Source of the DNA: Escherichia phage FEC19
Reading direction: 5' to 3' (one strand)
Sequence record: MH816966
Length of the DNA stretch: 64,000 nt
A model generated the notes under the pieces. The model saw only the letters and a list, made by a program, of their open reading frames with translations. It was not told where the DNA came from and searched no databases. Made by a program: the position numbers and the translations under genes. Each line of letters begins with the position of its first letter. The first letter of the stretch is position 1. Below are positions 11,887 through 26,164 of the stretch, in pieces.

Positions 11887-12045
11887 TGTTGACGTAAATT
11901 TACGAAAAATAAAACTGAAAATCAGTTTAATTAAAGTGGCATCGCCGCCAGAGTTTTTAGTTGCTACTGGCGGCGACTGAAGGCATAATTAAGTTATCCC
12001 AAACGGGGAATATAAAATAAACTAATTTATTTAAGGACTGTGAAT

Positions 12046-12885
12046 ATGGCCGAAGCAATCAAAGTATTATCTAAAGAAGAAAAACAAGCAGCTGCAGCAG
12101 AACGTCGTCGCGTGGCTGAAGAAAAACGCCTGGCTAAAAAGAAAGAAGCCGAAGAAAAACGCCAGAAGCGTGAGCAGGAAAAACAAGCCAAGCGTGAAGA
12201 AGCTGCGCTGAAACGCAAGCAGGCTGCTGATGAGAAGGCTCAGAAGCGTGCTGAAGAAGCAGCGAAGAAAGCCAAAGAGCGTGCAGAAAAGGCTGCTGCT
12301 AAGAAAGCAGAGCGTGAAGCCGCTAAAGCAGCAAAAGAAATCGAAAAGGCAAAGGCTAAAGAAGAAGCCAAGCGCCTGAAAGCTGAACAAGCTGCTGCTA
12401 AGAAAGCAGAGCGTGATCAAGCCCGTGCTGCAGCGAAGGCCGAAAAAGAGAAGGCCAAAGAAGAAGCTAAAGCGAAACGCAAGGCAGAGCGTGAAGCTGC
12501 TAAGATTGCGGCTAAAGAAGCTGCAGAAAAGCAGAAAGAACAGCGTAAGAAAGAAGCTGAAGAACGTCGCAAAGCCATCGCAGAACGTAAGGCTGCTAAA
12601 AAGGCAAACGGTCAGCGTCGTGCAAAAGCAACCCACTTCATCTACACTGGCAATGGCCTGAGCCAGCCGCAAGAGCATTCCACCCGTGGACGCGTTCTGG
12701 CGGCGATCAAAGAAGGCGAAGTTGGCGTGGCGCAGTCTATCGATGAGCTGGGCGAAAAAGTTAAAGATCAACTGTTTGGCGCTTCCGTTCGCTCCTACCT
12801 GAGCAAGCTGGAAGAGATGGGCCACATCGAGTTTGTCGATGTTGAATCCAACGAAGATGCCGAAGACGGTGATCAAGCGGAATAA
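12046..12885 (+). CDS. Lys/Glu/Ala-rich low-complexity protein with globular C-terminal domain
   Basis: About 200 aa of KAKEEAK/AEEKR repeats then an ordinary-composition C-terminal domain; ATG at 12046 with AAGGA RBS preferred over the GTG at 12040. Confidence 0.6.
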   Translation: MAEAIKVLSKEEKQAAAAERRRVAEEKRLAKKKEAEEKRQKREQEKQAKREEAALKRKQAADEKAQKRAEEAAKKAKERAEKAAAKKAEREAAKAAKEIEKAKAKEEAKRLKAEQAAAKKAERDQARAAAKAEKEKAKEEAKAKRKAEREAAKIAAKEAAEKQKEQRKKEAEERRKAIAERKAAKKANGQRRAKATHFIYTGNGLSQPQEHSTRGRVLAAIKEGEVGVAQSIDELGEKVKDQLFGASVRSYLSKLEEMGHIEFVDVESNEDAEDGDQAE

Positions 12886-12912: not shown

Positions 12913-12939
12913 GACCCACACTTGTTGTGGGTCTTTTTT
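12913..12939 (+). terminator. rho-independent terminator
   Basis: GACCCACA-CTTGT-TGTGGGTC followed by TTTTTT. Confidence 0.7.
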
Positions 12940-13017: not shown

Positions 13018-14013
13018 ATGAACATGAAACAACCTGTAATGATTATCGGCGGCGGACTGGCAGGACTTATCACCGCGTGTCACTTCCCGAACTCTGTTGT
13101 GTACGAAGCAGGGGAACGAGCGCAACAGCACAAGGCGCTGCTACGCTTTCGCAGCGAAGAAGTAAGCCGTATTACCGGAATCCCTTTTAAGGCCGTGACA
13201 GTTGACAAGGCTGTGTATTTTCGCGGCAACTACTATCACGACCATTGCCCAATCAACCTTGCCAATATGTATTCCATGAAGGTCACCAATCAATTTGGCA
13301 GCCGTTCAATCATGAAGCTTAAGACTGCAACGCGTTATATTGCGCCTGATGACTTTTATGATCAGCTTGTCGACAAACTGGGTGACCGCATATTCTTTGA
13401 TACTCCGGTTGATACTCTTTGCGGCTATAGCGAGACGCCAATCATCAACACGTCGCCGCTGCCAGTAATGATGAAGCTTGCTGGGATTGATCAAAAGCTT
13501 GATTTCTCATTTGATAAAGCAAACATTCGCGTTTACCGCTTTAAGATTAAACGTAAGTGTGATTTGTATCAGACAATTTACTTCCCTGACTACTCCGTCA
13601 GAACTTACCGCGCATCAATTACTGGTGACACGCTTATCATTGAAACAATTCCTTTGGTCAGCGTGAGTGAAGCTGCAGTTGAAGCCGCTGGCGGCATCAC
13701 TCGTTACCGTGACATGAAGCTGCGCGCAGAAGTCGACGAAGTGTTGACAGCCTTTGGCCTCTCATGGAGTGACATTGCTCTTGAAGAAGTTGAAAAGGTC
13801 GACCAGAAATATGGCAAGATTGTCGACATTCCGAAAGACTTGCGACACGCCCTACTCCTGCAGCTGACTATGGATTTGAACGTGTTCAGTGTCGGTCGAT
13901 TTGCTACCTGGCGCAACATTTTGCTTGATGACGTTGCCCATGACCTTGTTGAAGTTGAAAAACTCATCAAAGCAAATAACTATCAAAAATTTGCTTATAT
14001 TGCTAATAAATAA
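13018..14013 (+). CDS. FAD/NAD(P)-binding Rossmann-fold oxidoreductase (possibly UDP-galactopyranose-mutase-like)
   Basis: N-terminal VMIIGGGLAGLITA (GxGxxG); C-terminal VGRFATWRNILLDDV resembles the conserved C-terminal motif of flavin mutase/amine-oxidase-like enzymes. Confidence 0.6.
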   Translation: MNMKQPVMIIGGGLAGLITACHFPNSVVYEAGERAQQHKALLRFRSEEVSRITGIPFKAVTVDKAVYFRGNYYHDHCPINLANMYSMKVTNQFGSRSIMKLKTATRYIAPDDFYDQLVDKLGDRIFFDTPVDTLCGYSETPIINTSPLPVMMKLAGIDQKLDFSFDKANIRVYRFKIKRKCDLYQTIYFPDYSVRTYRASITGDTLIIETIPLVSVSEAAVEAAGGITRYRDMKLRAEVDEVLTAFGLSWSDIALEEVEKVDQKYGKIVDIPKDLRHALLLQLTMDLNVFSVGRFATWRNILLDDVAHDLVEVEKLIKANNYQKFAYIANK

Positions 14014-14014
14014 T

Positions 14015-14043
14015 TTGCTTTCTGCTTCAATGGGCGTATACTT
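14015..14043 (+). promoter_or_regulatory. sigma70-like promoter with -10 inside a palindrome loop
   Basis: TTTGCT-17-TATACT; the -10 lies between 11-bp arms CTGCTTCAATG and CATTGAAGCAG. Confidence 0.45.
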
Positions 14044-14078
14044 TAATCATTGAAGCAGAACTCATAGAGGAAACGAAA

Positions 14079-14525
14079 ATGAAACGAATCACTGGAATCG
14101 CGCTTGCCGCTACTGCTATTCTCGGCACCATGTATATGGAAGCGACTGAAGCTGCCATCCGTACTTCCGATTCAATCGCTGTTTACGATTGCGAAGCGAT
14201 GGACGGCAAGACCTCAGCAACGACTGGTGCAAAGATTACCACTTACATCGGTGTGAACGAGCAAGAAGGTCTGAATATTCAGATTCAAGGATTCACAGGG
14301 AAAGGTACCAACCGTACTCCGTGGATGCAACGTTTCACTTTCGTCCAACCTCGTTCAACTGGCGACTTTATCAATCTGATTGGTGAAAACCGTTCTGGTG
14401 CAGAAATCTTTACATCAATGAGTTCTAATAATGAACCAAAGAAAAGTTTTCAGTTGCTTTATAACGCACAATTCGTTTATCATTGCACCTTCTCTGGTGA
14501 TCAGCAACTAGTGAATTACCGTTAA
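14079..14525 (+). CDS. secreted protein with signal peptide
   Basis: N-terminal MKRITGIALAATAILGTMYMEA hydrophobic signal-like segment; two Cys in the mature part. Confidence 0.5.
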   Translation: MKRITGIALAATAILGTMYMEATEAAIRTSDSIAVYDCEAMDGKTSATTGAKITTYIGVNEQEGLNIQIQGFTGKGTNRTPWMQRFTFVQPRSTGDFINLIGENRSGAEIFTSMSSNNEPKKSFQLLYNAQFVYHCTFSGDQQLVNYR

Positions 14526-14538
14526 TAGGATAATTAAA

Positions 14539-15369
14539 ATGAAAGTTGAATTAATTCGATACACCCAAGATGCACTTGACCTTTTGCTGGAAACAAAGAA
14601 CACGCGCATGACTGGTAAGCCTGTCTCTGAGATGACGGAATCAGAGAAGCAAGAGCATTGGCGCTACATGCTTGATACAATCAAGTCGCCTTTTGACTTT
14701 GTGGACTATATCTTTGACATCACCGATGTTTCAAAGAATATGACCCATCAGATGGTGCGCACACGCACAGGCGCATATCAAGAACGCACCAGCCGCGCTC
14801 AGGAGTCGTCTGCATTTGATGCGATTCGTCCGAAGGCATTCTCACACCAAAATCCAGAGTTGATTGATCAATGTGAAGCATTTGGGACTGATGAAGAGCA
14901 CCAGTCTTTACTTCAAAAGCAATACTTAGCAGAGAAGTGGGATGATGCGATGGCGACTATCGATGTTTTGTATCAAGAGCTTCGCGCGGCTGGCGCAGAG
15001 ATTCAAGATGCACGTGCCGTGTTGCCTTCTAATATGCAAACGCATATCATGGCAAAGTTCAACTTGCGCACGCTGCAACAGATGGCGTCAAACCGCTTGT
15101 GCACGCGCACTCAAGGCGAGTATCAAGAAGTATTCCGCGCGATGGTTGCTGAAGTCCTCAAGGTGCACCCGTGGGCAAATCCATTATTACAGCCGCAATG
15201 CATCGGTATGGGTAAATGCGCGTTTCCTCGTCATGGCAAAGCCCATTGCCCTTGGTATCGTGATTGGATGGATACCACGGCACAGCAAGAAGAGTTGCGC
15301 ATCCAGTTTTGGAGTGCGATGCCAATCACCAACAATCCAGTTGCTAAAGATGGAGTATCAAAAGGATGA
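14539..15369 (+). CDS. flavin-dependent thymidylate synthase (ThyX)-like protein, noncanonical motif
   Basis: VRTRTGAYQERTS aligns to the ThyX RHR-x7-S region and ARAVLPSNMQTHIMAKFNLRTLQQMASNR to the ThyX helix [29 protein letters not shown] (recalled from memory). Confidence 0.55.
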   Translation: MKVELIRYTQDALDLLLETKNTRMTGKPVSEMTESEKQEHWRYMLDTIKSPFDFVDYIFDITDVSKNMTHQMVRTRTGAYQERTSRAQESSAFDAIRPKAFSHQNPELIDQCEAFGTDEEHQSLLQKQYLAEKWDDAMATIDVLYQELRAAGAEIQDARAVLPSNMQTHIMAKFNLRTLQQMASNRLCTRTQGEYQEVFRAMVAEVLKVHPWANPLLQPQCIGMGKCAFPRHGKAHCPWYRDWMDTTAQQEELRIQFWSAMPITNNPVAKDGVSKG

Positions 15370-16238
15370 GCATTAAAAACAGCGAAATCTTAAACGTATT
15401 CGACCTTGACGGAACGCTGTTTGATGACCGTTGGCGCTTAGACCGCATCAAGGTGGCAGGTCCGTTGTCAGACTATGATGACTATCACAGCGGTATTGGT
15501 TATGATCAGTTCTATCCTCACATTGCATCAGCAGTAGAGTCGGCATCTCTTCGCGGTGAGGCGGTTGAATATTGGACTGCAAGGCCAGAAAAATACAGAC
15601 AAGTGACTTTTGAACGTCTGGATAATGTTTTTCCTTTTGATGAATTTACAATCAAGATGAGAGACTATGGCGACAAACGTCCATCAACTATTATGAAATC
15701 TGCATGGCTATCGCACGCATTGCGGCACGGCGATTATCGAATCATCAATGTATTCGACGACCGACAAGACGTACTCGCGCGGATGCAAGATGAAGCATTG
15801 TATTATAATTCCGTTGCTCAAAATAAAATCGCTTTTACATTTAATCTTTGCAAGGCAGGTGAAGTGGTGCAACAATTAGCAATTGATCCAAGCGCAACAG
15901 GGCAAGAAGAGACTAAGGCTGTGGAAGTTGAACAATCTCCGGCAACTGCCGCCGATATTCTTGATGCAATGGCAGCAACCTTCCGTGAGCGCAACGCTGT
16001 CTATGGTGATAACGCTGTGATGGTAGGTCAGGTTATGCAAGTGCTTTTCCCTAATGGCGTGACGTTGAAAACGCCGGAAGACTACCACATGTGGCATCTG
16101 TTCGAGCTTAAGATTGTCAAGCTTACACGCTTCGCAATCAGCGGCCTGAAGCACGAAGACTCTATACACGATGATGGTGTTTACAGCGCCATGTGTGAAC
16201 GTCTTGTTAACGCCCATAATATTAATTTCAATAAATAG
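15366..16238 (+). CDS. HAD-superfamily phosphatase fused to a C-terminal domain of unknown function
   Basis: HAD motif I FDLDGTLF plus downstream T, K and DD motifs; C-terminal about 120 aa with RERNAVYGDNAVMVGQVMQVLFPNG of unknown affiliation. Confidence 0.6.
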   Translation: MSIKNSEILNVFDLDGTLFDDRWRLDRIKVAGPLSDYDDYHSGIGYDQFYPHIASAVESASLRGEAVEYWTARPEKYRQVTFERLDNVFPFDEFTIKMRDYGDKRPSTIMKSAWLSHALRHGDYRIINVFDDRQDVLARMQDEALYYNSVAQNKIAFTFNLCKAGEVVQQLAIDPSATGQEETKAVEVEQSPATAADILDAMAATFRERNAVYGDNAVMVGQVMQVLFPNGVTLKTPEDYHMWHLFELKIVKLTRFAISGLKHEDSIHDDGVYSAMCERLVNAHNINFNK

Positions 16239-16268
16239 TTTACTTGTGCGTTTCGATGAGTTATATTT
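16239..16268 (+). promoter_or_regulatory. sigma70-like promoter with -10 inside a palindrome loop
   Basis: TTTACT-18-TATATT; the -10 lies between 12-bp arms CGTTTCGATGAG and CTCATCGAAACG. Confidence 0.45.
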
Positions 16269-16303
16269 ATCTCATCGAAACGAAGTCCAAAAAGGATAAA
16301 TAA

Positions 16304-16987
16304 ATGAAAAAAGTAATTGTTGTAACTGGCTGCAATTCCGGTCTTGGTAAATCCATTTTTGACACCCTTGGCGCTTACGGTCATGAAGTTGTCGGTATTG
16401 ATTTGGAGAACGGCTATGACATCCGTAACGCGAAACAGATGAAAGAGCTTCTCTCTCAATACGACGTAGAAGGCTTGATCAACTGCGCTGGCGTCAACTC
16501 CAACAACTGGTTCGAAGATGTTAACTACGAAGAGTTCAATCGCGTTATGCACACCAACGCCTTCTCTTTCGTCAACACGACTCAGGCCGCGCTGAAAAGT
16601 CTTATCGACAACAAAGGTTTTGTGATCAATATCGTTTCTAACGCTGCGCATATTCCTATGACGTCCAGCTTGTGTTATAATGCTTCCAAGGCTGCTGCGC
16701 TCATGATTAGCAAGCAGATGGCTCACGAGCTTACGCCTAAATACGGGATCACGGTATTCTCTATTAGTCCTAACAAGCTACGTGGTACTGGCATGTCCAA
16801 ACAAATTGAAGATGCTGTTTGCGCGACTCGCGGCTGGACTCCTGAGTATGCTGCTGAATACCAGAAAAAGGCGTTGATGAATGGATTGGAGACTGAGCCG
16901 CAAGTAATTGCTGACTTCATTCGCCATATCTTAATTACGGGCGCATGGCGCTTTATGTCTGGTACTGATATTCCATTTGGGAAATAA
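16304..16987 (+). CDS. short-chain dehydrogenase/reductase (SDR)
   Basis: Cofactor motif VTGCNSGLGKS (TGxxxGxG) and catalytic YNASKAA (YxxxK). Confidence 0.8.
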   Translation: MKKVIVVTGCNSGLGKSIFDTLGAYGHEVVGIDLENGYDIRNAKQMKELLSQYDVEGLINCAGVNSNNWFEDVNYEEFNRVMHTNAFSFVNTTQAALKSLIDNKGFVINIVSNAAHIPMTSSLCYNASKAAALMISKQMAHELTPKYGITVFSISPNKLRGTGMSKQIEDAVCATRGWTPEYAAEYQKKALMNGLETEPQVIADFIRHILITGAWRFMSGTDIPFGK

Positions 16988-16990
16988 ATC

Positions 16991-17161
16991 ATGACTATCA
17001 AAGTTGTTGTAGAAGTGATTGGCGACGTGGCAGAAGTGAAGATTGATCAAGAAGGCGTTGGATTTGAAGTAATAAGAATCGAAAACGCAAAGATTAACCA
17101 CGAGCGCGTCGGTTCAATTGAGACTTATTCCATAGAAGGCAACACAGTAATTAATCAATAA
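16991..17161 (+). CDS. small hypothetical protein (56 aa)
   Basis: Not in the ORF track; fills the SDR-to-VOC gap; weak RBS. Confidence 0.25.
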   Translation: MTIKVVVEVIGDVAEVKIDQEGVGFEVIRIENAKINHERVGSIETYSIEGNTVINQ

Positions 17162-17181
17162 TATTTAATTAAGGAAACAAA

Positions 17182-17733
17182 ATGCCACATTTTAAAATTG
17201 AACAAATCGCCCTGTCAATTCCAGATGCTCAGCGCGCACAGGATTTTCTGGCTAAAATCGGCCTGACAGAATGGTTCCATGATCATGTTGTTGCTACTGG
17301 TCGCGTATTTGAAGCTGATGACTTTAAAGGTCAGCGCGGCGATTGCACCAACGAAGCTGACTTGCGCTTCAACTATCAAGCTGGCAACGGCACCGATGGC
17401 GGCGCTGGTAAGCCTCTTGAACTTGAAATTCTTGACTACACGAAAGGCCGCAACTGGATTAACGAAAACATCGAATACATCGATGCACATGACAATCAGG
17501 TTAGCCATCTTGGTATGCACGTGACTGCCGCTGAACTTGCTGAATGGCGCAAGTTCTTTAAAGAAGAAGGCATTCAGGTTGCGCAGGAAGTTGTGACCGA
17601 CTCTCACACCAACCCAAACATTGCTGGTCAGCGTCGTTACAACTATGTGATCTTTGATACGCGTGAAATCATTGGTGTCGACCTTAAGTTCATCGTGCGG
17701 TTGAATCAAGACGGTACTCCGTACACTGTATAA
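17182..17733 (+). CDS. VOC/glyoxalase-fold protein (tentative)
   Basis: N-terminus HFKIEQIALSIPDAQRAQDFLAKIGLTEW has the glyoxalase/bleomycin-resistance-like pattern. Confidence 0.45.
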   Translation: MPHFKIEQIALSIPDAQRAQDFLAKIGLTEWFHDHVVATGRVFEADDFKGQRGDCTNEADLRFNYQAGNGTDGGAGKPLELEILDYTKGRNWINENIEYIDAHDNQVSHLGMHVTAAELAEWRKFFKEEGIQVAQEVVTDSHTNPNIAGQRRYNYVIFDTREIIGVDLKFIVRLNQDGTPYTV

Positions 17734-17749
17734 CGAATCGTGAATCTGT

Positions 17750-17775
17750 GGCCGTCCTAATGGGCGGCCTTTTTG
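17750..17775 (+). terminator. rho-independent terminator
   Basis: GGCCGTCC-TAAT-GGGCGGCC followed by TTTTTG. Confidence 0.65.
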
Positions 17776-23230: not shown

Positions 23231-23494
23231 ATGGTACGCATCCTTGAACGTTACAAAAATGAAGCTACTGGCGCAATCGCGTTCAAACGTCTTTTGGTCA
23301 AAGAAATTGACGGTATGTTCCGCGTTGTAAAAGAGTTTGATTATGGCAACGGTGCTGGGGTGAATACCGTAATTATGCCTGGCATCAAGGCATATAAGAC
23401 TTTAAAAGGCGCTGAGAAGGCTTTGGCGGCTTGGAAACCTGAACGTTATCAAATGACCCGTGTTGAAGGGCTAATGCAAGAAGGTAAAATATGA
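23231..23494 (+). CDS. hypothetical protein (87 aa)
   Basis: ORF downstream of a TTGACT-17-CATAAT promoter. Confidence 0.45.
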   Translation: MVRILERYKNEATGAIAFKRLLVKEIDGMFRVVKEFDYGNGAGVNTVIMPGIKAYKTLKGAEKALAAWKPERYQMTRVEGLMQEGKI

Positions 23495-24048
23495 GCAATA
23501 TTAATTGGGAAGATGATTTGCCGCAGGTTGCTCCTGAGAGCATTCAGGAGCGTCTTGCGCGCTTAGTATCTGAATTGGCAGAGCGCCAAGAAGCTTTGAC
23601 AGAGCTTGAAGATGAAGCTGATATGCAAAAGCAGCGCATCAGTGAAATCAAAACTGTTCTGCTTCCTGGCGTTATGGATGAGCTTGGCGTGTCCGAAATC
23701 AAGCTTGAAGACAAGACCAAAATCAAGGTCGAGTCAAAAGTAAACGCTTCAATCAAGAAAGAAAATGAATTGAAGGTATTCGATTGGCTTGTCAACAATG
23801 GTTACGGCGGCTTGATCAAGTCCAGCGTCACGGCTGAGTTCGGTCGCGAAGAAATCGAGCAAGCGCAAGAGATTGTTGCCGCGCTGCGTGAAGATGGTGT
23901 TGAAGCCACGTTGAAACAAGGCGTTCATTCTGCTACACTGAAGTCGTTTGTAAAAGAACAGCTGGAAGCGGGCAATCCAGTTAGTGAAGATATTAGCGTT
24001 TTTGAATACAAAGAAGCTAAAATAACCTTGCCTAAAAGCAAAAAGTAA
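23491..24048 (+). CDS. hypothetical coiled-coil protein (185 aa)
   Basis: Acidic, heptad-like N-terminus; sits just upstream of the SSB-like gene. Confidence 0.45.
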   Translation: MSNINWEDDLPQVAPESIQERLARLVSELAERQEALTELEDEADMQKQRISEIKTVLLPGVMDELGVSEIKLEDKTKIKVESKVNASIKKENELKVFDWLVNNGYGGLIKSSVTAEFGREEIEQAQEIVAALREDGVEATLKQGVHSATLKSFVKEQLEAGNPVSEDISVFEYKEAKITLPKSKK

Positions 24049-24107
24049 TTTAACCTTTATCTTGAAATCAGGTTGCCACGAAACTTGATACTATAGGAAA
24101 ATATCAA

Positions 24108-24968
24108 ATGTCTAAGAAAGAAACCACCGAAGTTGCAGTGAAAAACACCCAGATGTCCGCTATGGCTGATTTTGTCGACATGACCGATTTTGGCGCTGGT
24201 TTTGAAGGTGCCGATGCCGATGCGTATGCCATTCCTTTTATCGTCGTACTGCAGAAGATGTCTCCTATGGTCGACGAAGATGATCCAAAACACGTTCCTG
24301 GCGCAAAGGCTGGCATGCTTTACAACACCGTTACTGGTGAGTTGTATGACGGCAAGAAAGGCGTGCAGATCATCCCTTGCGCATTCAAACGCACCTTCAT
24401 TCTTTGGGGCGGTCGCGAGTCCGACGATAAAGGCTTTAAAGGTGAATTCACCAAAGAGCACGTTGATGCAGAAGTCGCGGCAGGCCGCGCTGTTGAGATC
24501 AACGGTAAGGTATTCGTGCCGGACGAAAACGGCAAGGTGCACGAGAAGAAATCTCCTTACTACGCAGATACACGCAACCACTTCGTAATTCTGTTGAACG
24601 AAGAAACTGGTGAATTTGGTAGCGCAATGCTGTCTCTGACTTCTTCCATGATCAAGCCGTCTCGCATGCTGATGACCGCTCTGCAGCAGAAGAAAGTTCA
24701 GACTCCGCAGGGTCTGAAAACGCCGCCGACCTTTATGAACATCGTTCGCATGGGTACTGCATCCCAGTCCAAAGACGGCAACACCTGGTCTGTTCTGAAG
24801 TTTGAGCTGGAAGGTCTGGTGCAGGACAAAGGCCTGTACGAAGTCGCCAAGGCATTCCACAACGACGTAGTGGGCGGTAACGTTAACATCGACCGCAGCA
24901 AGCAGGAAGAAGCAAGCGGTGCCGCTGGTCCTGTCAATGAAACTCCTACCGACGCAGAAGAGTTTTAA
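24108..24968 (+). CDS. putative ssDNA-binding protein
   Basis: Acidic C-terminal tail ending in Phe (ETPTDAEEF), as in T7 gp2.5 and bacterial SSBs; AGGAAAA RBS. Confidence 0.45.
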   Translation: MSKKETTEVAVKNTQMSAMADFVDMTDFGAGFEGADADAYAIPFIVVLQKMSPMVDEDDPKHVPGAKAGMLYNTVTGELYDGKKGVQIIPCAFKRTFILWGGRESDDKGFKGEFTKEHVDAEVAAGRAVEINGKVFVPDENGKVHEKKSPYYADTRNHFVILLNEETGEFGSAMLSLTSSMIKPSRMLMTALQQKKVQTPQGLKTPPTFMNIVRMGTASQSKDGNTWSVLKFELEGLVQDKGLYEVAKAFHNDVVGGNVNIDRSKQEEASGAAGPVNETPTDAEEF

Positions 24969-25025: not shown

Positions 25026-25544
25026 ATGATAGAAAGAATTGTACCGCTCTTGAAGATTCTGGCCCTTGTTGGCGCGTTTGCCGCTGGATCATACGTTGAA
25101 GACCTGCAGCAAACCAACGCATCACTGGCCAAGGATAATCAATATCTGACATCGCTTAATGAGCGTAAGGACAAGATAAATGCACTCGAAGAGCAAATTG
25201 CATCTTTACAGGTTGAATCGGCATCGGCATATGAGAAAGGTCGCCAGGAAGCGCAACTGGTTGCTGATGACACTATTGCTCGTTACAAGTCTGGGAATAT
25301 CAAGTTGCGCGCGCAACTCAGCTGCTCCCGTGAGTTACTCAGGAGTATGCCCGACTCTGCGACCACTGGACGCCTCTCTATCCCAGAAGGAAACTGTGGA
25401 CTATCAGAAGAAGATGTCAGTTTTCTTGTTCAGTTCGCCGCAGAAACAAATCGATTAAAAGAGAAAGTTAATAGCTTGATTGATACTTATAATCAGGCTA
25501 AAATAAAAATCGATCAATTCAATGCATCAAAGGAAAATAAATGA
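25026..25544 (+). CDS. i-spanin (Rz-like)
   Basis: N-terminal TM helix IVPLLKILALVGAFAAGSYV followed by a long coiled coil; embedded lipoprotein ORF in the +1 frame. Confidence 0.6.
   Translation: MIERIVPLLKILALVGAFAAGSYVEDLQQTNASLAKDNQYLTSLNERKDKINALEEQIASLQVESASAYEKGRQEAQLVADDTIARYKSGNIKLRAQLSCSRELLRSMPDSATTGRLSIPEGNCGLSEEDVSFLVQFAAETNRLKEKVNSLIDTYNQAKIKIDQFNASKENK
25231..25458 (+). CDS. o-spanin (Rz1-like lipoprotein) embedded in the i-spanin gene
   Basis: MRKVARKRNWLLMTLLLVTSLGISSC signal with lipobox ISSC, then a Pro-rich mature part. Confidence 0.5.
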   Translation: MRKVARKRNWLLMTLLLVTSLGISSCARNSAAPVSYSGVCPTLRPLDASLSQKETVDYQKKMSVFLFSSPQKQID

Positions 25545-26164
25545 AACAGATTTATGCAAACATTCGCCAGTGGGCTTCTGACCGTAACATCATCCAAGGT
25601 TGCGACCTTAAGGACCAATACCCGAAGCTTATCAGCGAGTTCGGGGAGTTAACCGACCACGTTGATCAACTCCATGACCTTGTGTTCTTCGACCCTGAAA
25701 TTGGATATACAGAGCAAGCCATCTGTGACTTGCAGGCAGCAATTAAGGACGACATCGGCGATTGCCTTGTTGTGTTGACCATCCTGGCGGCGCAAAACGG
25801 TACTGAAATCGAAAACATTAATGGCGGCGGTTGTGCTGATAAAGGCGCTCACCCTCATTCATTCATCCTTCGCCTGGCAAAGACCCTTGGACGGCTTGGT
25901 GATGCTATTGCTAAGAATCAGACCATGGATATTGACGTCACCATCATGGCCGCAGTCGATTACCTTTCCGGCGTAGCTCATGATTATGGCCTTCGCTTAT
26001 CCGACTGTGCGCAAGCGGCCTACGAAGACATCAAGGACCGCAAAGGTGTCATGTACAACGGAACGTTCATCAAATCTACTGATCCAGCTTATGAGCACTC
26101 CTGCAAAATGGTAAAGAAGCTGGAACTTGAAGACCGTGTGATCAGAGAAGTTACAGGACAATAA
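25541..26164 (+). CDS. MazG-like nucleotide pyrophosphohydrolase (tentative)
   Basis: EFGELTDHV and DDIGDCLVVLTILAAQNG resemble the EExxE and EExxD motifs of all-alpha NTP pyrophosphohydrolases. Confidence 0.45.
   Translation: MKQIYANIRQWASDRNIIQGCDLKDQYPKLISEFGELTDHVDQLHDLVFFDPEIGYTEQAICDLQAAIKDDIGDCLVVLTILAAQNGTEIENINGGGCADKGAHPHSFILRLAKTLGRLGDAIAKNQTMDIDVTIMAAVDYLSGVAHDYGLRLSDCAQAAYEDIKDRKGVMYNGTFIKSTDPAYEHSCKMVKKLELEDRVIREVTGQ

What the first reader, a model, noticed from the sequence alone, without database searches (positions are those of the whole stretch)
13018..17733. Enzyme cluster of unknown function inside the replication module
Six adjacent co-directional genes encode a FAD-Rossmann oxidoreductase (GxGxxG plus a mutase/amine-oxidase-like C-terminal motif), a signal-peptide protein, a ThyX-like protein with an altered motif, a HAD phosphatase fused to an unassigned domain, an SDR and a VOC-fold protein. 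This is not a standard phage dNTP-synthesis set (no ribonucleotide reductase, dCMP deaminase or kinase seen). The mix of redox, phosphatase and thymidylate-synthase-like chemistry next to the polymerase genes suggests a nucleotide or DNA base/sugar modification pathway. Two of the promoters here have their -10 inside perfect palindromes.
Basis: partly seen in the sequence, partly recalled or inferred. Interest (0 to 1): 0.8.

Follow-up and report, generated by a model that had tools for sequence, protein, structure and literature searches.

The report
Candidate phage DNA thymidine-modification operon
A seven-gene operon beside the DNA polymerase of this E. coli phage, built around two unusual flavin enzymes, is conserved across roughly a thousand phage lineages and is the best available candidate for making the sugar-decorated thymine recently found in the DNA of related therapeutic Pseudomonas phages, whose genes are still unassigned.

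Summary
Window 13018-17733 is a single operon bounded by terminators in a Wifcevirus, an E. coli myophage. It encodes a UGM/PPO-like flavoprotein with no Pfam family and a Wifcevirus-only signal-peptide protein. It also encodes a divergent ThyX-like enzyme, a HAD phosphatase fused to a DUF6378-like four-helix domain, an SDR, a 56-aa ORF and a divergent VOC protein.

The module is not peculiar to this phage. In 56 of 56 complete related viral loci the order is flavoprotein, ThyX-like, HAD/DUF6378, then exonuclease and Pol III alpha. SDR and VOC are present together in 40 of the 56. In GenBank phages the flavoprotein and this ThyX clade each occur in 357 records, in the same genera.

Two papers give the context. 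Pbunaviruses carry the three-gene core, and their DNA holds a sugar or polyol-type hypermodified thymidine at TG sites with no assigned genes. [quoted passage not shown]

My best reading, at about 0.5, is that this module makes that class of modification. The chemistry, the origin of TG selectivity and the state of Wifcevirus DNA are all untested. The main rival is ordinary dTMP supply plus unrelated accessory enzymes.

The parts
12913..12933 (+). Intrinsic terminator (8-bp stem followed by a T6 run) that ends the upstream Lys-rich gene and marks the 5' boundary of the operon
   Evidence: terminator scan. (RNA fold -14.3 kcal/mol, z -4.2). Annotated as a terminator in phages Mansfield and phiKTN6.
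13018..14013 (+). Flavoprotein of 331 aa (or 329 aa from the ATG at 13024). It has a GxGxxG Rossmann motif and a UGM/PPO/amine-oxidase-like fold, and belongs to a discrete, uncharacterised phage family (phrog_4828).
14022..14058 (+). Hairpin or palindrome with perfect 11-bp arms and a 15-nt loop containing TATACT. It may be a regulatory or RNA-processing element.
   Evidence: sequence. (-18.9 kcal/mol, z -5.8). Flanking 95 nt identical in six Wifcevirus genomes.
14079..14525 (+). 148-aa protein with a signal-peptide-like N-terminus. It is a Wifcevirus-specific insertion and probably not part of the conserved module.
   Evidence: Found only in Wifcevirus loci.
14539..15369 (+). ThyX-like flavoenzyme of 276 aa. 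RHR is replaced by RTR, the His53 equivalent by Phe and the His178 equivalent by Arg. All five nucleotide-phosphate arginines are kept. The protein has four invariant Cys, three of them in a C-terminal extension.
   Evidence: Pfam Thy1 6.6e-29. TIGR02170 score 78.8, below the 87.9 cut-off. Alignments. Statistics over 69 sequences.
15366..15860 (+). HAD phosphatase domain of the polynucleotide-kinase-phosphatase (PNKP) type. It has the DLDGT motif and no kinase domain.
   Evidence: Pfam HAD_PNKP 5.4e-08. phrog_4889, phrog_415 and phrog_505. Family alignment.
15939..16238 (+). DUF6378-like four-helix domain fused to the HAD domain. It is a separate ORF in many relatives, and it is the universal third partner of the flavoprotein and the ThyX-like enzyme.
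   Evidence: 26 of 31 members match DUF6378. AF2 pLDDT 93.6. Stands alone in Ralstonia phage L089.
16249..16282 (+). Hairpin or palindrome with perfect 12-bp arms and TATATT in the loop. It overlaps a sigma-70-like site at 16239-16267.
   Evidence: (-18.9 kcal/mol, z -5.7). Conserved in Wifcevirus.
16304..16987 (+). Classical short-chain dehydrogenase/reductase of 227 aa, with cofactor and catalytic motifs intact
   Evidence: Pfam adh_short 1e-31. PDB FabG-type hits around 1e-12. Conservation. Co-occurs with the VOC gene.
16991..17161 (+). 56-aa acidic ORF with no family match, found only in some Wifceviruses
17182..17733 (+). Divergent VOC-fold (glyoxalase/epimerase-type) protein of 183 aa. 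Q8, E82, H109 and D167 are invariant.
   Evidence: Glyoxalase_4 8e-4. 18 of 30 orthologs match. Conservation. No PDB sequence hit.
17750..17769 (+). Intrinsic terminator (8-bp GC-rich stem followed by a T5 run) that closes the operon ahead of the exonuclease and Pol III alpha genes
   Evidence: Annotated as a terminator in phage Mansfield.

Best explanation
Claim. Window 13018-17733 is one operon whose conserved core is three proteins: a UGM/PPO-like flavoprotein, a divergent ThyX-like flavoenzyme and a DUF6378-like domain. The DUF6378-like domain is usually fused to a PNKP-type HAD phosphatase, and the core is usually followed by an SDR and a VOC protein. I think this is a thymidine-hypermodification module. 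It would make the class of sugar or polyol-decorated thymine found chemically in Pbunavirus DNA, and in Wifcevirus it would be the missing "genome protection mechanism" against restriction.

Proposed working, with shown and inferred steps kept apart.
1. The ThyX-like enzyme binds a uridylate or thymidylate-type nucleotide. Shown: the ThyX fold and all five phosphate-binding arginines are conserved. Inferred: it uses flavin-N5 chemistry to create or transfer the carbon on C5 as a reactive methylene rather than simply finishing dTMP.
2. Inferred: a small sugar or sugar phosphate is joined at that carbon. This fits nucleoside masses 362 and 390, which equal thymidine + C4H8O4 and thymidine + C5H8O5.
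3. The HAD phosphatase removes a phosphate. Shown: the catalytic motifs are intact. Inferred: the substrate.
4. Inferred: the UGM/PPO-like flavoprotein does the ring-opening or redox step on the sugar, or on the C-H next to the base.
5. Inferred: where SDR and VOC are present, they epimerise or isomerise and then reduce a carbonyl in the side chain. SDR/VOC-bearing phages such as this one should therefore carry a different side chain from Pbunavirus.

How TG selectivity arises is unresolved.

Likelihoods. Module makes the modification: about 0.5. The specific chemical scheme above: about 0.15-0.2.
For: Operon structure. Terminators flank the cluster at 12913-12933 and 17750-17769.

Conserved module.
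- Of 56 IMG/VR loci with a complete interval from the flavoprotein gene to the exonuclease gene, the ThyX-like gene is present in 56, the DUF6378-like domain in 56 and the HAD domain in 54. SDR and VOC occur together in 40 and are both absent in 14. The gene order is always the same.
- In GenBank phages the flavoprotein gives 357 full-length records and this ThyX clade also gives 357, in the same genera.
- The same trio is linked in the unrelated 206-kb Rhizobium phage RHph_Y65 and in a 40-kb Ralstonia phage.
- The flavoprotein family is discrete and large: 1138 clusters at 50% identity.

Deviations from canonical ThyX. Across all 69 sequences the His53 equivalent is Phe, RHR is R[T/S/N]R and the His178 equivalent is Arg. 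The score is below the NCBIfam thyX equivalog cut-off.

Literature.
- Pbunavirus F8 and 14-1 DNA contains hypermodified thymidine (nucleoside masses 362 and 390) replacing about a quarter of T at TG sites. The authors note the absence of known modification genes (PMC12191111).
- Pbunavirus has the core trio.
[quoted passage not shown] The window has 13 EcoRI, 9 EcoRV and 4 EcoKI sites.

No other candidates. No other enzyme-like candidates were found in the genome.

F8 versus 14-1. These two phages carry different modifications. Between them the HAD fusion is the most diverged enzyme, at 79% identity against 94-99% for its neighbours.
Against: - There is no direct chemical data on Wifcevirus DNA and no genetics on any of these genes.
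- A TG-specific modification of about 25% of T implies an enzyme acting on DNA. No DNA-binding or base-flipping enzyme, 5-hmdU kinase, aGPT-Pplase or glycosyltransferase was recognised.
- The ThyX-like active site looks like a mononucleotide site, so the enzyme could be an ordinary thymidylate synthase.
- Actinophage ThyX-like proteins share the non-His motif (RQR) and a Cys cluster, yet occur without the flavoprotein. Those deviations alone therefore do not prove coupling.
- Most of the 56 loci belong to one broad PB1-like lineage, so some of the synteny may reflect common descent.
- Pbunavirus is modified without SDR or VOC.
- F8 is cut by EcoRI while Wifcevirus resists it. Either the chemistry or motif differs, or another anti-restriction factor acts.
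Confidence: 0.5

Rival explanations
1. The cluster is an ordinary nucleotide-supply module. The ThyX-like protein is a bona fide flavin-dependent thymidylate synthase of a phage-specific lineage. The HAD enzyme is a nucleotidase or 3'-phosphatase. The flavoprotein, SDR and VOC are accessory redox or cofactor enzymes that support very fast replication. DNA modification, if Wifcevirus has any, is encoded elsewhere, and restriction resistance comes from another factor.
For: - Pfam Thy1 matches at 6.6e-29 over the full-length profile.
- All five dUMP-phosphate arginine equivalents are invariant.
- This is the only thymidylate-synthase-like gene in the genome.
- The module always sits immediately upstream of the exonuclease and Pol III alpha genes.
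- In RHph_Y65 it lies next to dUTPase and RNR genes.
- Similar non-His ThyX-like proteins occur in actinophages without the flavoprotein.
- A Lys-rich virion protein encoded just upstream could protect the DNA instead.
Against: - ThyX needs no partner flavoprotein, SDR or VOC in any known system (established knowledge of ThyX). Yet the flavoprotein and the DUF6378-like domain accompany this clade in 56 of 56 loci and in 357 versus 357 GenBank records.
- The three hallmark histidines are all replaced, and the thyX equivalog cut-off is not met.
- Pbunavirus DNA is demonstrably hypermodified on thymine, and no other candidate genes are known.
Confidence: 0.3
2. The genes are auxiliary host-takeover (moron) genes that act on cell-envelope sugars. 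An example would be galactofuranose or O-antigen remodelling by a UGM-like enzyme, an SDR and a secreted protein. On this view they do not act on nucleotides or DNA.
For: - The flavoprotein's best structural match is UDP-galactopyranose mutase.
- Phage Mansfield annotates it as UGM.
- A signal-peptide protein sits in the operon.
- Wifceviruses depend on O-antigen as receptor.
- PHROG labels the SDR family as an auxiliary metabolic gene.
Against: - The module is conserved, fused into the replication gene block, in phages of Pseudomonas, Xanthomonas, Serratia, Rhizobium and Ralstonia, whose envelopes differ.
- The signal-peptide gene is Wifcevirus-only.
- The module is strictly linked to a nucleotide-binding ThyX-like enzyme.
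Confidence: 0.06

Closest known systems
Thymidine hypermodification pathways of phages M6, ViI, PaMx11, SP10 and PhiW-14 (Lee et al. 2018; PMC8989533)
   Same: The outcome is the same: a bulky group on the C5-methyl carbon of a fraction of thymidines, which protects the DNA from restriction. A thymidylate-synthase-superfamily enzyme and a flavoprotein are involved, and the genes sit among the replication genes.
   Different: Those pathways use a ThyA-type dUMP hydroxymethylase, a P-loop 5-hmdU DNA kinase and an aGPT-Pplase amino-acid:DNA transferase. None of these was found here. This module has a ThyX-type enzyme, a UGM/PPO-like flavoprotein, HAD, DUF6378, SDR and VOC. The appended group in the Pbunavirus relatives is sugar or polyol-like, not derived from an amino acid.
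Canonical flavin-dependent thymidylate synthase ThyX (e.g. T. maritima TM0449, PDB 1O26)
   Same: It belongs to the same Pfam Thy1 family. The Q75, R78, R80, R90, R147 and R174 equivalents are conserved.
   Different: The His53 equivalent is Phe, His79 is Thr/Ser/Asn, His178 is Arg and Tyr91 is Ala/Val. About half of the family has an all-or-none four-Cys C-terminal extension. The score is below the NCBIfam equivalog cut-off. It always comes with a partner flavoprotein and a DUF6378-like domain.
UDP-galactopyranose mutase, protoporphyrinogen oxidase and amine oxidase flavoproteins
   Different: Identity is only 12-17%, and no Pfam or PDB sequence match was found. At about 310-330 aa it is smaller. 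It forms a discrete family of about 1100 clusters that does not grade into the large cellular families. Its substrate is unknown.
5-hydroxycytosine arabinosylation in RB69 and DLP3 (PMC13326640)
   Same: This is a precedent for a thymidylate-synthase-superfamily enzyme repurposed with a flavin to make a non-methyl C5 substituent, which is then sugar-decorated.
   Different: That enzyme is a ThyA homolog acting on dCMP. The sugars are added by recognisable glycosyltransferases using UDP-arabinose. Here the base is thymine and no glycosyltransferase was recognised.
Base J (glucosyl-hydroxymethyluracil) of kinetoplastids
   Same: It is a sugar attached to the thymine methyl carbon at a subset of T in DNA. 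The Pbunavirus masses fit 5-hmdU + pentose - H2O (390) and 5-hmdU + tetritol - H2O (362); this is my own arithmetic on the figures.
   Different: Base J is made on DNA by Fe/2-oxoglutarate dioxygenases (JBP1/2) and a glucosyltransferase (established knowledge). No such domains were found here.
T4 polynucleotide kinase/phosphatase
   Same: The N-terminal domain of the 290-aa protein matches the PNKP phosphatase (HAD) domain and has the DxDGT motif.
   Different: There is no kinase domain. It is fused to, or encoded next to, a DUF6378-like domain instead. The database label "polynucleotide kinase/phosphorylase" is therefore misleading.

Membership tests
ThyX (flavin-dependent thymidylate synthase) | Match to Pfam Thy1 (PF02511) above the gathering score | tested here: met
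   101.5 bits against a cut-off of 24.8, covering profile positions 2-191 of 191.
ThyX (flavin-dependent thymidylate synthase) | NCBIfam TIGR02170 thyX equivalog cut-off | tested here: not met
   78.8 bits against a cut-off of 87.9.
ThyX (flavin-dependent thymidylate synthase) | ThyX signature motif RHRxxSxxxxSxR, together with His53 and His178 (T. maritima numbering) | tested here: not met
   The window has RTRTGAYQERTSR. Across 69 family members the middle residue is T, S or N and never H. The His53 equivalent is Phe in 69 of 69 and the His178 equivalent is Arg in 69 of 69.
ThyX (flavin-dependent thymidylate synthase) | Arginines that bind the dUMP phosphate (R78, R80, R90, R147, R174) | tested here: met
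   R74, R76, R86, R159 and R186 are invariant in 69 of 69 sequences.
ThyX (flavin-dependent thymidylate synthase) | Catalyses dUMP + CH2-THF + NADPH -> dTMP; complements thyA | not testable with these tools
   This needs an enzyme assay or a complementation test.
UDP-galactopyranose mutase (Glf/UGM) | Sequence membership (Pfam GLF domain, or similarity to solved UGMs) | tested here: not met
   No Pfam family matched even at E <= 10. There was no PDB sequence hit with the single sequence or the profile, apart from the GxGxxG stretch.
UDP-galactopyranose mutase (Glf/UGM) | UGM-type FAD fold | tested here: inconclusive
HAD phosphatase, PNKP type | Pfam HAD_PNKP above the gathering score, plus the DxDGT nucleophile motif | tested here: met
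   33.5 bits against a cut-off of 27.6. Residues FDLDGT, TARP and FDDRQD are present and conserved.
Polynucleotide kinase (as annotated in databases) | P-loop kinase domain | tested here: not met
   No kinase family was found in the Pfam, NCBIfam or PHROG domain coordinates. The rest of the protein is the DUF6378-like domain.
DUF6378 | Match to PF19905 | tested here: inconclusive
   The window copy gives no hit. Of 31 orthologous domains, 26 match at E <= 1 (best 1.3e-05), all below the gathering score.
MazG-like all-alpha NTP pyrophosphohydrolase (considered for the C-terminal domain) | Detectable homology or fold match to MazG-type proteins | tested here: not met
Short-chain dehydrogenase/reductase | Pfam adh_short above the cut-off; TGxxxGxG; catalytic Ser-Tyr-Lys | tested here: met
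   110.4 bits against a cut-off of 26.6. VTGxxxGLG, S112 and YNASK are conserved in 45 orthologs.
VOC (glyoxalase/bleomycin resistance/dioxygenase) superfamily | Pfam Glyoxalase family above the gathering score; paired metal ligands | tested here: inconclusive
   20.1 bits against a cut-off of 27. Of 30 orthologs, 18 match Glyoxalase_4 (best 7.5e-06). Q8, E82, H109 and D167 are invariant and resemble a glyoxalase I/epimerase-type site. There is no PDB sequence hit and no structure model was made.
Known thymidine-hypermodification system (ThyA-type hydroxymethylase + 5-HMUDK + aGPT-Pplase) | Presence of these three enzyme families | tested here: not met
   None was found among the operon proteins or ten further unknown ORFs, nor in the annotation of the complete Wifcevirus Bas99 genome.
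Thymidine hypermodification (as a phenotype) | Non-canonical thymidine derivative in virion DNA | not testable with these tools
   It has been shown only for Pbunavirus F8 and 14-1. For Wifcevirus the only evidence is indirect, from RM resistance.

The most novel reading that the evidence does not exclude
The flavoprotein, the ThyX-like enzyme and the DUF6378-like domain would form a new, flavin-based route to hypermodified thymine. This route would use none of the known parts: no ThyA-type hydroxymethylase, no 5-hmdU kinase, no aGPT-Pplase, no JBP and no glycosyltransferase. A ThyX-derived enzyme and a UGM/PPO-like enzyme would use flavin-N5 iminium or hydride chemistry to join a sugar-derived carbon chain or a sugar hydroxyl to the C5 carbon of uracil or thymine. 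SDR and VOC would diversify the side chain. On this reading about a thousand phage lineages, including therapeutic Pbunaviruses and Wifceviruses, carry a family of sugar or polyol thymidines.
Probability: 0.3. Interest if true: 0.9.

Novelty: new variant of a known kind. Interest (0 to 1): 0.77.

Why it matters
Pbunaviruses are among the phages most often used for personalised therapy against P. aeruginosa, and Wifceviruses are candidate biocontrol agents against E. coli O157. A 2025 preprint showed that Pbunavirus DNA carries an unexpected sugar or polyol thymidine that host END nucleases sense, but it could name no biosynthetic genes. The BASEL study left Wifcevirus restriction resistance unexplained.

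This operon gives both open questions a concrete and directly testable gene set: three core genes and two optional ones. It also predicts which uncultured phages are modified, and that phages with and without SDR/VOC differ in side-chain chemistry.

If confirmed, it would add new enzymology for modifying DNA: a ThyX-derived enzyme with a partner flavoprotein. It would also help predict phage host range against restriction and modification-dependent defences.

Tried and rejected

2. The flavoprotein as a true UDP-galactopyranose mutase, as annotated in phage Mansfield. There is no sequence membership, and PPO scores nearly as well.

3. Membership of the known thymidine-hypermodification system. 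The defining enzymes are absent.

4. Random incorporation of a modified dNTP as the explanation for the Pbunavirus restriction pattern. Under 25% random substitution, the enzymes reported as blocked (mostly 2 T per site) would cut better than those reported as cutting (mostly 4-6 T per site). That is the opposite of what was observed. This is my own arithmetic on the data, and it means a sequence-specific step on DNA is needed.

5. Looking for a second thymidylate synthase in RHph_Y65, to test whether its ThyX-like gene is redundant. I inspected only about 69 of 207 kb and found none, so this is inconclusive.

6. Comparing F8 with 14-1 to pinpoint the gene that sets the 362 versus 390 difference. 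The HAD fusion and three small ORFs are the most diverged, but much of the HAD difference is linker indels. This is only a weak lead.

7. The afdb50 fold library was unavailable.

8. Rfam found nothing in the window.

9. I found no restriction-digest data on Wifcevirus DNA in the vB_Eco4M-7 paper.

10. "Altered ThyX motif proves coupling to the flavoprotein". I weakened this claim after finding that the Gordonia phage Sadboi ThyX-like protein also has RQR, a non-His residue at position 53 and a Cys cluster, yet has no flavoprotein partner.

Full report
**What the window is.** The 4.7-kb stretch is 93-98% identical to about 27 Escherichia and Shigella myophages of the genus Wifcevirus; the best match is vB_EcoM-Ro157lw at 98%. 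In these records the genes are annotated as hypothetical, "thymidylate synthase", "polynucleotide kinase/phosphorylase" or "FabG-like reductase". One record calls the first gene "UDP-galactopyranose mutase".

**Check of the observation.** All have AGGA/GGAG-type ribosome-binding sites. Strong intrinsic terminators lie just before the cluster (12913-12933) and just after it (17750-17769), so it is one transcription unit. It sits between a Lys-rich protein gene and the DnaQ-like exonuclease and Pol III alpha genes.

The domain calls hold:
- ThyX-like: Pfam Thy1, 6.6e-29.
- HAD_PNKP: 5.4e-08.
- SDR (adh_short): 1e-31.
- VOC: weak, Glyoxalase_4 at 8e-4 and below the Pfam cut-off. At family level 18 of 30 orthologs match.

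The two palindromes with -10-like hexamers in their loops are real. They fold strongly as RNA (z about -5.7). They are identical across Wifcevirus genomes that differ by 2-6% elsewhere. Whether they are promoters is untested. The promoter scan found no more sites than chance would give.

**The cluster is a widely conserved module.** A profile of the flavoprotein retrieved 80 IMG/VR loci at 40-100% identity. Among the 56 loci that contain the whole interval from the flavoprotein gene to the exonuclease gene:
- the ThyX-like gene is present in 56;
- the C-terminal domain of the "HAD fusion" is present in 56, often as a separate ORF of about 95 aa;
- the HAD domain is present in 54;
- SDR and VOC are present together in 40 and both absent in 14.

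The order is always flavoprotein, ThyX-like, HAD/C-terminal domain, SDR, VOC, exonuclease, Pol III alpha. The signal-peptide protein and the 56-aa ORF are Wifcevirus-only.

In GenBank phages the flavoprotein gives 357 full-length records, and so does this ThyX clade, with the same genus counts (Pseudomonas 292, Escherichia 25, Serratia 9 and so on).

The same trio is linked in two other settings:
- the 206-kb Rhizobium phage RHph_Y65, in a different family, where it lies beside dUTPase and RNR genes;
- a 40-kb Ralstonia phage, which lacks the HAD domain.

The minimal core is therefore flavoprotein + ThyX-like + the four-helix domain.

The flavoprotein family is discrete. It has 1138 clusters at 50% identity at E <= 1e-3 and 782 at E <= 1e-30, among 1.84 billion representatives.

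**The individual proteins.**

*ThyX-like enzyme.*
- It keeps the equivalents of Q75, R78, R80, R90, R147 and R174 of T. maritima ThyX, the nucleotide-binding residues.
- In all 69 family sequences the His53 equivalent is Phe, the middle His of RHR is Thr, Ser or Asn, and the His178 equivalent is Arg.
- It scores below NCBI's thyX equivalog cut-off.
- Thirty-eight of the 69 carry a C-terminal extension with four Cys that are all present or all absent. This is the signature of a metal site.
- A caveat: the Gordonia phage Sadboi ThyX-like protein (27-30% identical) also has RQR, a non-His residue at position 53 and a Cys cluster, but no flavoprotein partner. These deviations therefore mark a broader phage lineage.

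*HAD domain.* It has intact catalytic motifs and no kinase domain.

*SDR.* Its cofactor and Ser-Tyr-Lys motifs are intact.

*VOC family.* Q8, E82, H109 and D167 are invariant. From general knowledge of the superfamily, this pattern is more like glyoxalase I or epimerase-type proton-transfer enzymes than dioxygenases.

**What the literature adds.**

[quoted passage not shown] The exception is EcoP1_I (PMC11990801). Site avoidance does not explain this, because the window has 13 EcoRI, 9 EcoRV and 4 EcoKI sites.

A 2025 preprint on END nucleases (PMC12191111) shows the following for Pbunavirus, the distant relatives that share the core trio:
- DNA is cut by EcoRI, HindIII, XbaI, DraI and BsaI.
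- LC-MS finds a novel thymidine-derived nucleoside of 362 u in F8 ("erythrose/threose sugar alcohol derivative") and 390 u in 14-1 ("circularized aldopentose derivative"). It replaces about a quarter of T.
- The authors stress that Pbunavirus lacks known modification genes.

I found no later paper that assigns genes.

**Interpretation.** The most economical reading is that the conserved module is the missing pathway. The masses equal thymidine + C4H8O4 and thymidine + C5H8O5. They fit either 5-hmdU ethers or glycosides (258 + 122 - 18 and 258 + 150 - 18) or C-linked chains (dU + pentose - O and dU + hexose - H2O). This arithmetic is mine.

The enzyme set fits that chemistry:
- a ThyX-type enzyme for chemistry at C5 through a flavin-N5 methylene;
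- a second flavoprotein whose nearest folds open sugar rings through flavin-N5 adducts (UGM) or abstract hydride next to conjugated rings (PPO);
- a phosphatase to remove the phosphate of a sugar-phosphate donor;
- an epimerase or isomerase-type VOC and a carbonyl reductase to tailor the side chain.

Because Pbunavirus lacks SDR and VOC and Wifcevirus has them, I predict a different side chain in Wifcevirus. That could also explain why Wifcevirus resists EcoRI while F8 does not.

I put the link between module and modification at about 0.5 and the detailed scheme at 0.15-0.2.

**What does not fit.**
- A TG-specific modification needs an enzyme that reads DNA. My arithmetic shows that random incorporation of a modified dNTP predicts the opposite restriction pattern.
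- The ThyX-like site looks like a mononucleotide site, and I recognised no DNA-binding or base-flipping protein, kinase or glycosyltransferase in the operon or elsewhere in the genome.
- Most supporting loci belong to one broad PB1-like lineage, so synteny is partly inherited.
- The main rival, at about 0.3, is that the ThyX-like protein simply makes dTMP. On that view the neighbours are unrelated accessory enzymes, and restriction resistance has another cause, for instance the Lys-rich virion protein encoded just upstream.
- An envelope-sugar "moron" role is unlikely, at about 0.06.

**Novelty and verdict.** The genes are in public records, but as hypothetical or mislabelled proteins. The phenotype is published for Pbunavirus without genes. 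The link proposed here is new and testable, and if true it is a new variant of thymidine hypermodification with different enzymology.

Its interpretation is partly supported: it is strengthened by independent experimental literature and by comparative genomics, but it is not demonstrated.

Noticed in passing
window 12040-12885 (+): A 281-aa Lys/Ala/Glu-rich protein (pI 9.7, 77 K+R) lies directly upstream of the operon, separated from it by a terminator. Its phiKTN6 ortholog is annotated as a structural protein. It might be a virion-packaged DNA-binding protein and an alternative source of restriction resistance.
   Followed up: partly
window 14022-14058 and 16249-16282: Two perfect-arm hairpins (11 and 12 bp) have -10-like hexamers in their loops. 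RNA folding gives z about -5.7. They are identical across six Wifcevirus genomes that otherwise differ by 2-6%. They are likely regulatory or RNA-processing elements; no Rfam family matches.
   Followed up: partly
window 14079-14525 (+): A 148-aa protein with a signal-peptide-like N-terminus is inserted between the flavoprotein and ThyX-like genes, in Wifcevirus only. It has no Pfam or PHROG match.
   Followed up: no
window 14539-15369 (ThyX-like), residues C188, C221, C227, C237: These four Cys are either all present, together with a C-terminal extension (38 sequences), or all absent (31 sequences). This suggests a Zn or Fe-S site not known in canonical ThyX. A similar Cys cluster is seen in the Gordonia phage Sadboi ThyX-like protein.
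   Followed up: partly
window 25541-26164 (+): A separate MazG-like pyrophosphatase gene (phrog_1992, 3e-62) lies between the spanin and DNA ligase genes. It may take part in shaping the dNTP pool.
   Followed up: no
window 23491-24968 (+): Two conserved proteins of unknown function match Pam3 gp33-like (DUF7307) and Pam3 gp34-like families. They lie in the replication block downstream of the UvsW-like helicase.
   Followed up: no
L058:6419-6916, L033:2255-2896, L050:8431-9264, L020:12925-13263: Some metagenomic versions of the module carry extra genes. These are a T4 endoV-like pyrimidine-dimer DNA glycosylase (Pyr_excise, 3.6e-14), a second HAD_PNKP with CxxC pairs, a 278-aa protein with a DDN motif and no Pfam hit, and a sigma70 region-4-like HTH protein.
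   Followed up: partly
L005 (phage F8) versus L088 (phage 14-1): F8 and 14-1 carry different thymidine modifications. Between them the HAD-DUF6378 fusion (79% identity) and small ORFs 58, 60 and 61 (78-82%) are much more diverged than the flavoprotein (97%), the polymerase (96%) or the Dda helicase (99%).
   Followed up: partly
window 13018 / 13024: There are two in-frame ATG codons. Relatives annotate the 329-aa form that starts at the second ATG, and its spacing from the AGGA ribosome-binding site is more typical.
   Followed up: no
whole window: TA is under-represented (observed/expected 0.67) and GC over-represented (1.29). TG/CA is not avoided (1.16). XbaI and BsaI sites are nearly absent, at one each.
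   Followed up: no
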